64,000 nucleotides of DNA, from NCBI GenBank assembly GCA_951406725.2, contig OX597824.1, positions 45,446,001-45,510,000 on the forward strand, in the 5' to 3' direction. Source of the DNA: Octopus vulgaris (lineage: Eukaryota). A program made the position numbers and the translations under genes. The notes under the pieces were generated by a model. That model did not search any database, was not told the DNA's origin, and worked only from the letters and a program-made list of their open reading frames with translations. This document shows, piece after piece, positions 26,448-61,695 of this stretch; position 1 is the first letter of the stretch, and each line of letters opens with the position of its first letter.

Positions 26448-26950
26448 CAAGGGTGGGCTGAAAAGTTCATAGGCTGACTAAGGAGTTATCATACAGTAAT
26501 TAAACTTGGCATGCATTAAATTCAACTGTAACTGATATTAACTGCACTTTTTATTTCCAGAAAACTGATGAAGGGTGTTATGCTTCACCAGGGCGATGCT
26601 CTTACACACAAATCTGTGGTTGCAATTGCAGCTGTGACAGTGGTTTTAAACTGGTTGATCACCCTCCATATTTTCCTGATTTGGCACCATCTGGCTATTT
26701 TCTGTTCCCCAATGTGAAAAAACACTTGGCTGGCAAGTAGTATTGGACTAATGATGAGGTCATATCTGCTGTTGAGAACTATTTTTGAGGGTCACGATGA
26801 GAACTTCTATACCACAGGAATCCAAGCACTGCAACACTGATGGAAGAAGTGTAGGGACTGCAGGGGAGACTATGTTGAAAAATAAAACACATTTGGTCAA
26901 GTTCAACCACTGCGTCATGGTCAGCCTATGAACTTTTCAGCCCACCCTTG
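26448..26950 (+). mobile_element. 503-bp internally deleted mariner (irritans-like)
   Basis: TA flanks and perfect 31-bp TIR CAAGGGTGGGCTGAAAAGTTCATAGGCTGAC. Interior encodes DHPPYFPDLAPSGYFLFPNVKKHLAG...WKKC...GDYVEK* with stops. Confidence 0.93.
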
Positions 26951-32901: not shown

Positions 32902-33912
32902 TTAATGATGTAGTAGTACCATAGCATGACTGGAATGTGTGCTGAATAAGAAAAAAGATAAAAAAAAAAGTTTAAATAAAATTAAGAAAACTCCAAATTA
33001 ACTTTCAAATGAAGACTTGAAAGGCACTCCCAAAAGCTGGAAGGTTTAGTCAAACAAGTGGGTGTTGACCAGTTTACATCTCTTTTTGTTGTTCTTGTAT
33101 CTATGATGGTGATACAAGAATAATAGTAATCACACTTAAAACAGCAGATATACCATTATTACTAAAACCAGTAGTTCACTTGCCTGGTAAAGAATTCTTC
33201 TGAAGACTCACCCTACTGCCAAACCTTGATAGATCATTTTATCTTAAACAGACTCACCAAGTAAAATATAATTCAGACTATTTTTGTTTAGTGATAAGCT
33301 GCTAGCTAAATGAGTTCCACTCCCAAACAAATAATGCATAGTGAATCATAAAGGTAGAGACAGTCAGGATTTGAAACTTCACCTCAGGGTATTAAATAAA
33401 CCAATAATACCCTCTAAAGCTGCTATTATAATACAGTCACTAAAAATATCGTTTCTTTTTGTTGTAGCCATTTCTCAATTGGTGTCAACTTTGCCTTTCA
33501 CTCCCTGATTTTAATAAAATAAATTACCATCAAATACTAGAGCTAATGTTATTGACTGAACACCTTGTCCTAAAATTATCACTTATTATTATTTTTCAGT
33601 AGCCTTTGTGTGTGCAGTGCATAGTAGTTACTATTTACTCTAGGCTGTGTCTAAGTCCCTGGGTTTAGATTATATATTTGCATATTTTTAAAGTCATTTT
33701 CAATGCACCCATTATTACAGGATTGTTTTTATCTTCAGCCTCCACATTCAGGTGATCTCTGTTTCTTTATATTTGAGTAATTATCCCACCTCTTTGGGAG
33801 ATACAATATCACTTAATGAGATTGATACTTTGATTAGGAGGTGCTTCCCTTCCTAGTTGTTCTTAATAATGAACAGTCAATTAGCCTTAATCTCCACCTG
33901 TATGGATAAGTA

Positions 33913-35202
33913 TTGGGTTGGCAACTGAGTTCCCGCTGTTTTATTTTAAACTTTGGAATTTATTACATTTTTAAATTTTGGAATCTATTTTTATTGAGAA
34001 GTCTATTTTTGAATAATTTTGGAATCTATTTTGGTTCTTTTTTTCGAGTTAATTTTAGTTAATTTTTGTTTATTTTCAGATAATTAAAATGGAATGTCAA
34101 CTTAAGAAAAACGAGCATTTTCGACATCTTTTTGCTTTTAATCAAGGTTCTAAGACCACAAAAGATGCTTGCAACATTTGTGCTGTGTAAGGAGACGGTG
34201 CCATAGCTGAAAGAACCACTCGTGATTGGTATGCGAAGTTCAAAAACGAAATTTTGACCTCAAAGGCATACCATGTTCTGGCTGTCCAGCTGAGTTCAAT
34301 GAAGAACGATTAAACCAACTTTTGCATGAGAATTCTCAAATGACAAGGGAACTGGCAGAGAAAATGGAATGCTCCCACACTGCTATAGAGAAGCATCTTC
34401 ACTCAATGGGAAAGGTTCAGAAGTATGGAGCATGGGTTTCGCATGCTTTAAGTGACAACAACAAAAATCAACGAGTCAGAATCTCTGCTGGTTTGTTTGC
34501 TTGTCACTGCTCAACTCATGGACACAAGCAACGATTTCTTTACCGAATCGTTACTGGTGACGAAAAATGGTGCCTGTACATCAATATGAAGCAGCGTAAG
34601 GAATGGCTTAGCCCCAGTAAACAAGCGACACTGCACGTGAAACAAGATTTTCATCCCCATAAAACAATGCTGTGCATATGGTAGGACTGGGAAGGGATTA
34701 TCCATTACGAATTGCTTGAACAGAACCAAACAGTCAATGCAGAACTCTATGTTCCACAGATAGAACGACTCAACATGGCTATTCAAGAGAAAAGACCTAA
34801 TCGGCAGCATGGAGTTCTTCTGCTGCATAACAATGCCCACCCTAATATATCGTCAATATGACCAAGGAAGCCATTCAAGTGCATGGCTGGGAAGTGCTGC
34901 CACACCCACCGTGCTCTCCTGATTTGGCACCAACAGATTTCCATTTCTTTCGATATCTTTCAAATGCTATGCGTGGAGTTTCGTTCAATACTGATGCAGA
35001 ATTGAGAGCTTGGTTGGATCAATTTTTCAAGTCGAAATCGGGTGGTTTCTACCAAGGTATGGAAAATCTTGCTGAACGTTGGGAAGAAGTTGTAAACAAC
35101 AACGGTGAATACATTATTGATTAATTAGTTGTTAATTTTTATTAAACCTTTTAAAAAATTTAAATTAAAAAAAAAATGGCGGGAACTTAGTTGCCAACCC
35201 AA
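33913..35202 (+). mobile_element. Full-length (1290 bp) mariner, mellifera-subfamily-like
   Basis: TA flanks; TIR TTGGGTTGGCAACT(G/A)AGTTCCCGC at both ends. Confidence 0.97.
34089..35124 (+). pseudogene. Mariner transposase pseudogene
   Basis: MECQLKKNEHFRH..., WVSHAL (cf. WVPHEL), IVTGDEKW, LLHNNAHP, HPPCSPDLAPTDFH, ...NGEYIID*. Two in-frame stops and several frameshifts. Confidence 0.95.
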
Positions 35203-39125: not shown

Positions 39126-40423
39126 AGAAAATAGGGTATGACTAAAAGGTGATTTGGTTATTTCTAACAAGTGTATAGGCTTTACTGTTTTGCTCGTTGT
39201 TGTTGATAACATTAGTGTACATGTTGCTTTTAGATGACTTTTTGTTGTTTGTCAACAAAGTTGAGACAGCTGAGTCAGTAACACTAAACTGGGCAGTTTG
39301 TTGTTAACTTTACACCAGCTCTTATTGAGTAGATCCATGATAAAAATTATTATAGCCATGACCATCCTGCCTTTTTCCTATTTTTTTTGGTGGTGGTGGT
39401 GGTGGTGATGGTGGAGAGCAGTGTATCTAGGATTAAATTATTCAATGTGTCCTGTTTTAAAATGGTGGAGTGTCGTTTGAGGGAAATTTGGCTACTACTT
39501 CCAGCAAGTCAAGAAACAATATAAAGGTTTCTTTGCTGAAGATAATGATGTTGAACAACCCATTCATCCAACTGAGCTAATCTATGATACAGAGGTAGCC
39601 AATCAAAATATTGAAGTAAAACTGTTAAGACCACGTTCCCGGATATGACATGTGTACAGGATATCTGACATGTGTAAATTCAATTTCCTTCACATTATCT
39701 CATATTTATTGATATTTAAAGGATGCTATCTCATTAACTGTGGCCATGCTGTCCTAAGATTCAAGACTGAAAATGTAGTTTCTGTTTTTAACATAGGAAG
39801 TCTGCTGCAGAAAATTTTGCTGCTACACTGAGCAAGTCAAGTTATAATATAGAAGCTGTCTTGGCTTATGCTGTAGTTGGTAGTGAAAGTAGCTTTTGAG
39901 AGTATCTATGAATGAAGATTTAATCAGAAAACTCAAGCTATGTGCTTTTTAAAATGGTTTTAATGAAATTGCTGTACTTTTTCTGTTTTGAGAAAATATA
40001 GTGCTTTAATTTAAAGTTAATATTAAAATACATGAGCATAAAGCATGGTGGGTTTCAGAAATATATTGATAATAATGTTGAAAGAGTCAAGATTTTCCTA
40101 AAATAAAGTAGAATACTTAACTAGAATATGAAATAATGCAAAAATTATAGATTAGAAAAAGGAGATAACACTTTAAAACTACAATCTGGATGAGTGTTTT
40201 TGAAAAATGAGGTATGCAAGTTTGAAAAAGATATCCACAGAAATATATAACTGACTTTATAACAAGAGTTGCCGGTACATAAACATAACTACTATAGTTG
40301 ACCACAGTAACATCATCTTCCGACATATCTTTATAATGCAATGGAAACAAAGAAAAGAGGAAGAATGATAAAGGAAAGCAGTCAAACAAAGAGAGGAGAA
40401 GGAAAAGTATTAGTACTACTTAC

Positions 40424-40532
40424 CTATCTGTCTCTGGTTCCTTGGGTCCATTGACATTAATGTGTTGATATATTGATGATGGCTGAGGTGGCTGAGGTGG
40501 AGGTGCCACAGGAGGTGGGGTCCTGTACATAC
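40424..40532 (-). CDS. Internal coding exon (109 nt), proline-rich; tentatively Ena/VASP (enabled) post-EVH1 exon
   Basis: Acceptor tattttgttgtgacag|GT, donor AG|gtaagt, open frame xMYRTPPPVAPPPQPPQPSSIYQHINVNGPKEPETD(R/S), phase 1 to phase 2. From recall, ENAH/VASP exon 4 (G..P-rich..NGPS.EE...R) has the same phases and NGP motif. The exon call is fairly firm; gene identity is tentative. Confidence 0.7.
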
Positions 40533-40767
40533 CTGTCACAACAAAATACACACATTCTGTTACTTTTTTAGTGCAAGCAACCATTTTCACTGAGTCACAA
40601 GTCATTTAACTAATGTGTGAGCTTTCGTGCAAGCTGACACTATGCAAGTTACAAAGGCATAAAATTAGACTGTTAATTTTTTTGAATTAAAAATAAAAGT
40701 GTCTTTTTTCCACATATATTTCAACATGAAGGCAGAGAGAATTTTTCAAACTCCATTTCTGACTGAC

Positions 40768-40779
40768 AATTCCCATTTG
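40768..40779 (-). CDS. Candidate 12-nt microexon
   Basis: gtcttccctgctcgctcttcctctgtctcag|CAAATGGGAATT|gtcagt. Frame-preserving in phase 1 with the exon at 40532. Confidence 0.35.
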
Positions 40780-41029
40780 CTGAGACAGAGGAAGAGCGAG
40801 CAGGGAAGACCACGACCAAGCCGGTATACAACGTGAAATAGTAGCAGCTACCAGCCAACCGCATGCAATCAATACTTCATTCCATACAATCCATGCCGAT
40901 CAAGAGATGTACACAATAATGGTAAAATAACATGGGAAGTTTATCATTTCAAATGCCAGCTAGAGAGGGAGAACAATTGGAAATTTCTCCGACAGACATA
41001 CAAAGTTGATTTTAACATGATTTATCTTT

Positions 41030-60820: not shown

Positions 60821-61695
60821 CAGGATGTGGTGAATAAACTGTTGTCTAAATTACACAAAAATGAAAATAATAGTGACATCTCATTTTAATGGATATATTT
60901 ACCGAAATTACATAAAAATATCTTGAAATACACAAGAGTAAATTTATTCAAAAAAATCACCATTGGCTTCAACCATGGCCTCCAGATGGCTTTGGAATCT
61001 CCTGCAACTCTTCTGGATGGTCTCCTTGTTTAAGTTGATGAATGCTGCCATAATCCTTGCCTTCAGTTCATCTTTGGTGCGTGTTACAAGGAGTTTTTTT
61101 GTTGGTCTCTTGTCCAACTGTGCCCCACACATAATAATCATGGGGGTTGCAGTCTGAGGAGTTAGATGGCCACATGTTAGGGGTGATGTAGTCGCAGAAA
61201 TTGTCTGACAGCCACGACTGGGTTTTCCTGCTTGTGTGCCAAGGTGCAGAGTTCTGTTGCCAGACATAGGGTCTCCCAGAAGCCATCCTCTTGAACCAGG
61301 GCAGCACTACCTCCTCCAGGCATTTGTTTTAGGCCTCTGTGTTGAGAATGAGGCCGTGTGGGAAGATGAATAGAGGCATAACGTCGCTGTCTCTAGTGAT
61401 CACTCCAAACATCATGGTGCTGACTGCATGTTTGATTTTTATCACTCTTGGTACATGTCCTCAGACTGACACCCAAACACTCTGAAATGTTCATATTGGA
61501 GCTTCTGGTGTGGATGCCAAGTAATACAGCATATTGTTTCCAAATTTTTGTGCAGAGTGAACTGCATCATGGTGCTCTTTTTCTCACAGACAGTGCCCAA
61601 CTGATCCTACTATACTGTGTAGTCAACAAAATCAAAAACAAACAATGCGCGAAATTAAAAATATAAAATGGTGACAATTTACCCATTTCACCCTG
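60821..61695 (-). mobile_element. DD37D (maT) element, internally deleted
   Basis: TA flanks, CAGG(A/G)TG.. imperfect TIRs. GRPYVWQQNSAPWH...WPSNSSDCNPHDYYVWG has 37 residues between the second and third catalytic positions; ends EANGDFFE*. Confidence 0.92.

What the first reader, a model, noticed from the sequence alone, without database searches (positions are those of the whole stretch)
40762..40900. Candidate 12-nt microexon just upstream of the Ena/VASP-like exon
Seen: on the minus strand a long pyrimidine tract containing UGC ends in CAG, followed by 12 nt (CAAATGGGAATT) and GTCAGT. It lies 235 nt before the phase-1 exon at 40532. TGCATG (40862-40867) and another GCATG lie upstream in a CpG-retaining, non-repeat block. 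Inclusion adds 4 codons in frame (xNGN). Known: UGC near the 3' splice site is the SRRM3/4 neural microexon signature, TGCATG is the Rbfox site, and vertebrate Mena has 4-aa (++) and 19-aa (INV) alternative exons right after EVH1. Inference: a cephalopod neural microexon at the equivalent position. The donor is only moderately strong.
Basis: partly seen in the sequence, partly recalled or inferred. Interest (0 to 1): 0.7.

Follow-up and report, generated by a model that had tools for sequence, protein, structure and literature searches.

The report
Conserved intron switch in octopus Ena
Two stretches at the end of a long intron in the octopus Ena/VASP actin-regulator gene are kept in a distant relative, likely a squid-type cephalopod, but the proposed 12-base mini-exon between them was never seen spliced in; they more likely serve an internal start that would make an Ena protein lacking its EVH1 targeting domain.

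Summary
The letters are as described, in the intron right after the EVH1 exons of the octopus Ena/VASP gene. The 12-nt exon is unproven. It is skipped in 169 of 169 raw junction reads (3 runs, tissue unknown), in 5 of 5 contig sets and in 12 of 12 cephalopod-type proteins. Its donor is no better than a median random GT. What is real is a conserved module. Block A (40897-40795, both GCATG sites) and block B (40605-40533) match a distant cephalopod-type sequence far above background, and two other species labels change only the spacer between them. RNA contigs join this intron end unspliced to the next exon. Block B is an in-frame, indel-free extension with two conserved ATGs. My best reading (0.35) is a hybrid internal/first exon giving an EVH1-less Ena. 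Rivals: neural 12-nt microexon (0.22), a poison upstream acceptor (0.18), splice-control elements of a late-spliced intron (0.18). The scan holds no note at this place. An earlier unchecked note proposes an EVH1-less Ena first exon in a sea-urchin-type genome.

The parts
40424..40532 (-). Constitutive 109-nt Ena/VASP exon after EVH1 (phase 1 to phase 2), proline-rich start; its acceptor has the poorest pyrimidine tract (0.50) of the 9 mapped in the gene
40533..40605 (-). Conserved block B: intron end that is also a 24-codon in-frame extension of the exon, with ATG at 40605 and ATG at 40584 (A at -3, G at +4); likely coding start of an EVH1-less isoform; read as coding in database isoform P0126
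   Evidence: 21 of 24 residues and no indel in the distant relative; 82.6 bits against background <=22.2; no change in organisms B and C
40606..40708 (-). Unconserved spacer; holds all 5 substitutions of organism C and both changes of organism B in this intron end
   Evidence: the middle part of the distant relative's frame gives no match here
40758..40767 (-). Two overlapping weak donor-like GT sites (after 12 nt: GTCAGT; after 16 nt: GTCAGA)
   Evidence: U1-match 5 and 5.5, at chance level
40768..40779 (-). Candidate 12-nt microexon (would add four residues in frame); never seen included
40780..40812 (-). Acceptor-like element: C/U-rich tract (86% pyrimidine) with TGC at -23, ending in CAG, inside a 70-nt AG-free zone
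40795..40897 (-). Conserved non-coding block A: GC- and CpG-rich, holds GCATG (40896-40892) and TGCATG (40867-40862); likely promoter/5' leader or splice-control element
   Evidence: 59.8 bits against background <=25.3 over 240 kb scanned; 51 of 57 fixed letters alike, with gaps; no stable fold; no Rfam match
40503..41020 (.). Stretch covered by unspliced RNA contigs joined to the exon; upper ends 40824, 40873, 40926, 41014 and beyond 41020 in five runs
   Evidence: contigs show neither strand nor true starts

Best explanation
The end of the 49-kb intron after the EVH1 exons of octopus Ena/VASP holds two conserved blocks and appears unspliced in RNA contigs joined to the next exon; it likely works as an internal start site, so that this exon would double as a first exon and would give an Ena protein without its EVH1 targeting domain. 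Shown: the conservation, the unspliced RNA on the upstream side with little on the downstream side, the open in-frame extension with two ATGs, and skipping of the 12 nt in every run laid. Inferred: block A is the promoter or 5' leader; translation begins at 40584 or 40605; the product keeps the proline-rich, actin-binding and tetramer parts (P0126 has VASP_tetra but no WH1) and would mix into Ena tetramers and loosen their EVH1-based targeting. On this reading the CAG/12-nt/GT is a by-stander inside a pyrimidine-rich leader, or a rarely used site.
For: Block B has 21 of 24 residues kept (16 of 17 from the second ATG), at least 4 letter changes in 72, and no indel. That is as well kept as the exon, which has 3 changes and a 2-residue gap. 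The local match starts exactly at the ATG, and organism C's nearest changes are at 40610 and 40611, just outside it. Only the exon's frame of the three is stop-free. The 40532 acceptor has the worst pyrimidine tract in the gene, as expected under a coding constraint. A database isoform of this genome (P0126) reads it so. In 5 of 5 contig runs an unspliced contig runs up from the exon at depth 5.4-12.7 against 33-106 for the spliced form, and none continues into the downstream intron; 3 of 5 end at 40824-40926, in or beside block A. The region is 50% GC with 6 CpG in a 33% GC window. Human hybrid first exons lie below GC/CpG-rich DNA and are used mostly in brain, testis and colon (10.1101/2021.05.27.446076).
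Against: Contigs cannot show starts or strand. The five runs were found because they hold this intron, so their cover is by choice. Two of five run on to the CT repeat near 41020. Separate downstream-intron contigs exist at depth 3.6 (X6) and 2 (X9), so pre-mRNA background is present. In the 3 unselected raw runs of organism C, cover of 40545-40650 is depth 1 in X21 and 0 in X22 and X23. Several upstream ATGs lie in the would-be leader. A non-coding block changing at block A's rate would look this coding-like in 11% of simulations, and at a 5% rate in 52%. The distant records are gene-called frames, so they are stop-free by construction. About 7% of YAG sites have such an in-frame ATG by chance. 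A deeply conserved block directly above a good acceptor points to splicing. The basis of the P0126 model is unknown.
Confidence: 0.35

Rival explanations
1. One reading: a 12-nt microexon included in some neurons under an Srrm234/eMIC-type factor, with Rbfox sites upstream, adding four residues after EVH1 as Mena ++ does.
For: TGC near the acceptor, a C/U-rich tract, a 70-nt AG-free zone and a weak donor match the fly eMIC code (PMC8797185 section 10). Block A lies directly above and is deeply conserved. There is no change in 40709-40873 in organism C and none above 40671 in B. An SRRM_C family match lies in this genome, 32.6 bits against a cut-off of 27. Abalone models have two cassette-like inserts at this junction, one starting I-S-D-G. 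Mouse ++ was rare in ESTs (2 of 224).
Against: 0 of 169 raw junction reads (95% upper bound 1.8% pooled), 0 of 5 contig sets, 0 of 12 proteins, although the same protein sets do show other short alternative inserts. The donor is at chance level. The tract abuts the AG and no CUAAY branch point lies within 120 nt. In the distant relative the L-S-R-W register excludes GT after 12 nt; the only 12-nt option, in another register, has a GTTYAC donor.
Confidence: 0.22
2. The upstream CAG is a real but unproductive acceptor. It is used without a donor (a 247-nt extension) or with the 16-nt donor, which brings a premature stop and likely decay, so it tunes Ena level as the upstream acceptor of SYNGAP1 exon 11 does.
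For: Both outcomes give a premature stop: after 19 residues for acceptor-only use, after 30 for the 16-nt form. The acceptor is stronger in pyrimidines (0.86) than the normal one (0.50) while the donor is poor. Decay would explain the absence from RNA and proteins. Both blocks flank the two competing acceptors. Precedent: PMC10164156 (passages).
Against: No loose end or break at 40779 in any of 8 runs; the contigs pass straight through it (1 and 8 lower-ranked loose-end rows were not shown).
Confidence: 0.18
3. Both blocks are RNA elements that control the weak normal acceptor at 40532; the 49-kb intron is removed late, so polyadenylated RNA keeps its last few hundred bases, and neither the upstream AG nor the ATGs are used.
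For: Contig ends vary from 40824 to beyond 41020, as cover tailing off would. Block B holds the branch and tract region of the acceptor. Non-coding change explains block B with probability 0.11-0.52.
Against: Block A lies 260-360 nt from that acceptor and directly above another good AG. Conservation of block B starts at an ATG and keeps a run of six A without an indel.
Confidence: 0.18

Closest known systems
Hybrid first-internal exons (HIT index; 10.1101/2021.05.27.446076, abstract and section 9 read)
   Same: Internal exon with long flanking introns (about 49 kb and 48 kb), GC/CpG-rich DNA just above it, RNA reaching upstream of the acceptor
   Different: No capped starts shown here; described in human data; here the extension also carries a conserved open frame that would replace EVH1
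Mouse/human Enah (Mena) exons 3a (INV/+++, 19 aa) and 3b (++, 4 aa) (PMC2898656 and PMC3728509, passages)
   Same: Same region of the protein, next to EVH1; the candidate has the size of 3b; 3b is rare in ESTs
   Different: 3a and 3b are shown by RT-PCR, with forms carrying both found in most tissues rather than only in brain; the octopus 12 nt is not shown to be included; no sequence homology tested
Srrm234/eMIC (SRRM3/4)-dependent neural microexons (PMC8797185 section 10; 10.1101/2024.09.17.613571 passages and section 10)
   Same: Short in-frame size, UGC near the AG, long AG-free zone, C/U-rich tract, weak donor as in fly
   Different: Tract runs up to the AG instead of standing back; no CUAAY branch point; vertebrate targets have strong donors; upstream intron is 49 kb whereas fly targets have short introns; no inclusion seen
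SYNGAP1 exon 11 alternative 3' splice site coupled to decay (PMC10164156, passages)
   Same: Upstream acceptor in a pyrimidine-rich region a short way above the normal one; its use would bring a premature stop
   Different: No junction to the upstream acceptor seen here; PTBP binding untested
Database models of octopus Ena/VASP: P0001, P0123 (full length) and P0126 (EVH1-less, starts at 40605)
   Same: P0126 already reads block B as a coding start
   Different: Listed as a hypothetical protein; no model holds the 12 nt; block A and the deep conservation are not part of these records

Membership tests
eMIC/SRRM3-4 neural microexon | 3-27 nt and frame-preserving | tested here: met
   12 nt, frame stays open in silico
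eMIC/SRRM3-4 neural microexon | UGC near the AG, long AG-free zone, C/U-rich tract | tested here: met
   TGC at -23, 70-nt zone, 86% pyrimidine
eMIC/SRRM3-4 neural microexon | Tract and branch point set back from the AG (weak 3' context), strong CUAAY branch point | tested here: not met
   Tract abuts the AG; only TTCAC at -58 and TTGAT at -93; criteria
eMIC/SRRM3-4 neural microexon | Usable donor (strong in vertebrates, weak in fly) | tested here: inconclusive
   U1-match 5, reached by 57% of all GT; below all 8 mapped donors of the gene; simple count, not a trained model
eMIC/SRRM3-4 neural microexon | Included in neural RNA, skipped elsewhere | tested here: inconclusive
   0 of 169 reads, 0 of 5 contig sets, 0 of 12 proteins, but tissues unknown
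eMIC/SRRM3-4 neural microexon | AG, GT and length conserved in relatives | tested here: inconclusive
   Unchanged in organisms B and C; ends cannot be fixed in the distant relative, where the best register excludes 12 nt plus GT
eMIC/SRRM3-4 neural microexon | Inclusion depends on the eMIC domain | not testable with these tools
   Only an SRRM_C family match in the genome; that this Pfam model marks the eMIC domain is recalled, not shown
Hybrid first-internal exon | Used as an internal exon | tested here: met
   Spliced on both sides in 8 of 8 runs
Hybrid first-internal exon | RNA extends upstream of the acceptor without an upstream junction | tested here: inconclusive
   5 of 5 selected contig runs show it; depth 1, 0, 0 in 3 unselected raw runs; intron retention not excluded
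Hybrid first-internal exon | GC/CpG-rich DNA upstream | tested here: met
   50% GC, 6 CpG in 121 nt, top 0.6%; a formal 200-nt CpG island was not tested
Hybrid first-internal exon | Capped 5' ends at the site | not testable with these tools
   Contigs cannot show starts; raw reads had almost no cover there
Alternative 3' splice site coupled to decay (SYNGAP1 type) | Use of the upstream acceptor gives a premature stop | tested here: met
Alternative 3' splice site coupled to decay (SYNGAP1 type) | Junction to the upstream acceptor present, raised when decay is blocked | tested here: inconclusive
   None in 8 steady-state runs; blocked-decay data not available
Mena ++ (exon 3b) orthologue | Same intron position and homologous sequence | not tested
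   Only the general place next to EVH1 is shared; no vertebrate exon sequence was fetched

The most novel reading that the evidence does not exclude
Coleoid cephalopods have kept a switch at the EVH1 junction of their Ena gene: an internal start that swaps the EVH1 targeting domain for a short conserved cysteine-rich N-terminus (perhaps lipid-anchored), possibly beside a neural microexon that arose in parallel with vertebrate Mena ++. This would give neurons a second way to place or block an actin elongation factor.
Probability: 0.3. Interest if true: 0.6.

Novelty: new member of a known kind. Interest (0 to 1): 0.38.

Why it matters
Ena/VASP proteins steer actin growth in neurites, and the junction after EVH1 is a repeated site of isoform change (mouse 3a/3b; abalone and snail models). 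Octopus shows one VASP-tetramer gene in this search, so a conserved way to drop EVH1, add four residues or destroy the message would be its main lever for tuning Ena. All four readings are known kinds of regulation, so the value is a precise and cheaply testable conserved element in a cephalopod, not a new mechanism. As a microexon call it is unproven.

Tried and rejected
RNA structure: no stable fold (z 0.44 and 0.54) and no Rfam match, so an editing or structure element has no support. Repeat origin: both blocks are single-copy in the own-genome search. DNA of the distant relative: two scans of metagenome contigs gave no relative, so its letters are known only through the translation of P0156/P0165. 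The representative search added only P0156, P0004 and an unrelated-looking hit, P0178. Runs: no listed holder is on record as RNA, which is no evidence either way. I laid 5 of the 14 'RNA?' holder runs and 3 of 3 raw runs; none of the 6 DNA-like runs was laid, so there is no neutral-intron yardstick for organisms B and C beyond the spacer. About 6 in 100 of each raw run was read. Cluster listings showed 7 of 8 and 15 of 21 members. An initiator-like TCAGTY at 40766 (motif recalled) is expected by chance and the contigs run past it. The 42-nt insert of the distant relative and the abalone inserts have no match in 120 kb of this gene. Literature: searches for microexon + octopus, microexon + enabled + Srrm234 (14), octopus + VASP + splicing (65, 0 papers) and cephalopod conserved non-coding elements (63) listed nothing on this locus; of these I saw the listings, plus passages of 10.64898/2026.09.05.749416 (no Enah or VASP mention). 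PMC9699675 (passages) has no mention of microexons in its main text. Its long-read isoform file (annotation.gtf) was too large to be read and its supplementary PDF was not searched; the isoform file may already hold the answer. Supplements of the bioRxiv preprints were not seen.

Full report
Host gene. The window is G000:C11:45446001-45510000. WH1 matches lie about 26 and 51 kb beyond its upper end on the minus strand, and the only VASP_tetra match lies 28 kb below it. The matching protein P0001 (WH1 + VASP_tetra) is named Octopus vulgaris by its source. One coding exon lies in the window, 40532-40424. The last EVH1 exon ends in phase 1, about 49 kb upstream, and the next exon is about 48 kb downstream.

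Observation. Every stated letter and distance holds. The acceptor side is uncommon: 3 sense and 0 antisense sites in 120 kb combine >=80% pyrimidine, TGC and a 60-nt AG-free zone. The donor is not. Its U1-match count of 5 is reached by 57% of all GT, 23% of YAG sites have such an in-frame donor within 27 nt, and the gene's own 8 mapped donors score 6-9.5. The tract also runs up to the AG and no CUAAY lies within 120 nt. SRRM3/4 targets have tract and branch point set back from the AG (10.1101/2024.09.17.613571), and fly targets have strong branch points and short introns (PMC8797185).

Is it spliced in? In three raw RNA runs of organism C (tissue unknown, about 6 in 100 of each read), 60, 58 and 51 reads leave the exon at 40532. 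All continue into the EVH1 exon (agreement 1) and no joint is listed; one lower-ranked loose-end row was not shown. The pooled 95% upper bound is 1.8%. In five contig runs (X6, X1, X13 of organism A, X9 of B, X14 of C; 5 of the 14 RNA-like holders) each has a long skipping contig and none has an inclusion contig. Contigs drop rare forms, so this speaks only against dominant inclusion. Twelve of 12 cephalopod-type proteins have the same length between EVH1 and the exon, although these sets do show other short inserts of 7-14 residues. This does not refute a neuron-restricted exon: tissues are unknown, and the true 12-nt mouse Enah 3b was found in 2 of 224 ESTs (PMC2898656).

Conservation. In organism C all 5 substitutions fall in 40610-40708, with none in 40503-40609 or 40709-40873. 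In organism B the one substitution and one 2-nt deletion fall in the same spacer. The after-the-fact probability for the five is 0.002. A deeper view came from two unnamed gene-called frames, P0156 and P0165, that read through this intron in a relative whose Ena is 81% identical over the junction region; that it is a squid-type cephalopod is my inference. Back-translated as a profile, they match two places in the 120-kb gene region. Block A, 40897-40795, scores 59.8 bits against a background of at most 25.3, with 51 of 57 fixed letters alike and both GCATG sites compatible. Block B, 40605-40533, scores 82.6 bits against at most 22.2. The middle part matches nothing here. The exon ends in the relative cannot be fixed. 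In the register L-S-K-W against L-S-R-W a GT after 12 nt is impossible; in-frame options of 3, 15 or 18 nt exist, and strong donors would fall at 13-20 nt, out of frame. Other acceptor positions allow 3, 6 or 9 nt with a strong donor, or 12 nt with a poor one (my reading of the offsets).

What the RNA does show. Each of the five contig runs has an unspliced contig from the exon up to 40824, 40873, 40926, 41014 or beyond 41020, at depth 5.4-12.7 against 33-106 for the spliced form. None continues from the exon into the downstream intron, though separate contigs at depth 3.6 and 2 lie there in two runs. These runs were found through this very sequence, and the unselected raw runs show depth 1, 0 and 0. 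Nascent RNA would be richer at the start of the downstream intron than at the end of the upstream one (established knowledge), so the pattern fits an internal start or late removal of the long intron.

Mechanism. I favour an internal start (0.35). Block B is open only in the exon's frame, begins at an ATG where the match to the relative also begins, has a second ATG in good context, and keeps 21 of 24 residues with no indel. It would explain why this acceptor has the poorest tract of the gene. A database isoform, P0126, already starts there and lacks WH1. Block A is GC/CpG-rich like the DNA above human hybrid first exons. The product would keep the proline-rich, actin-binding and tetramer parts but lose EVH1 targeting; lipid anchoring through its cysteines is speculation. 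The case is not strong: non-coding change reproduces block B's look in 11-52% of simulations, the relative's frames are stop-free by construction, and several upstream ATGs lie in the leader. The rivals are the 12-nt neural microexon (0.22; an SRRM_C match exists in the genome, and abalone models have inserts at this junction), a poison use of the upstream acceptor (0.18; premature stops, precedent PMC10164156), and splice-control elements of a late-spliced intron (0.18). They are not mutually exclusive.

Comparison and verdict. All readings are known kinds. I do not file the 12 nt as an eMIC microexon: one defining feature was not met and inclusion was not seen. My paper searches listed nothing on this locus, but the long-read isoform file of PMC9699675 could not be read. 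The scan has no note near this place. One earlier unchecked note (e1-7811747) proposes an EVH1-less first exon in a sea-urchin-type Ena; I did not test it, and it raised my attention to that reading. The result is a real, deeply conserved regulatory module with an unproven microexon. Interest 0.38.

Noticed in passing
L009:5832-5834 (G000:C11:45525832-45525834), minus strand, same 49-kb intron: A second candidate, 3 nt long, with TGC at -8 and a strong GTAAGC donor: a more textbook eMIC layout than the finding. It is also absent from the 169 junction reads.
   Followed up: partly
G000:C11 near 45422274 (in L011), below the window: A 24-nt alternative exon near the C-terminus separates isoforms X1 and X2; the argonaut and the distant relative have inserts of 7-8 residues at the same place.
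   Followed up: partly
P0134, P0138, P0139, P0140: The distant relative has a 14-residue insert right after the 109-nt exon; no match was found in 120 kb of the octopus gene.
   Followed up: partly
P0061, P0066, P0151, P0152, P0098, P0150, P0050: Gastropod Ena models vary at the same post-EVH1 junction: 11- and 37-residue inserts in Haliotis, a 6-residue shorter form in Littorina, 2 extra residues in Bradybaena.
   Followed up: partly
L014 (G000:C25:37317492-37317626): SRRM_C family match at the end of an Arg/Ser-rich exon, a likely Srrm234 gene.
   Followed up: partly
window 33900-35200: Broken frames (34226-34684, 34846-35124) with mariner-transposase-like motifs (family recalled, not tested). 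Similar pieces at 26504-26740 and 60944-61392.
   Followed up: no
window 39457-39525: A short repeated element hit by many unrelated RNA contigs.
   Followed up: no
window 40523-40527: A TACAG 10 nt inside the exon could act as a second acceptor and would give an immediate stop; it was not seen used.
   Followed up: partly
cluster of P0004: The cluster lists unrelated 40-47 residue peptides among its members, probably a clustering artefact.
   Followed up: no
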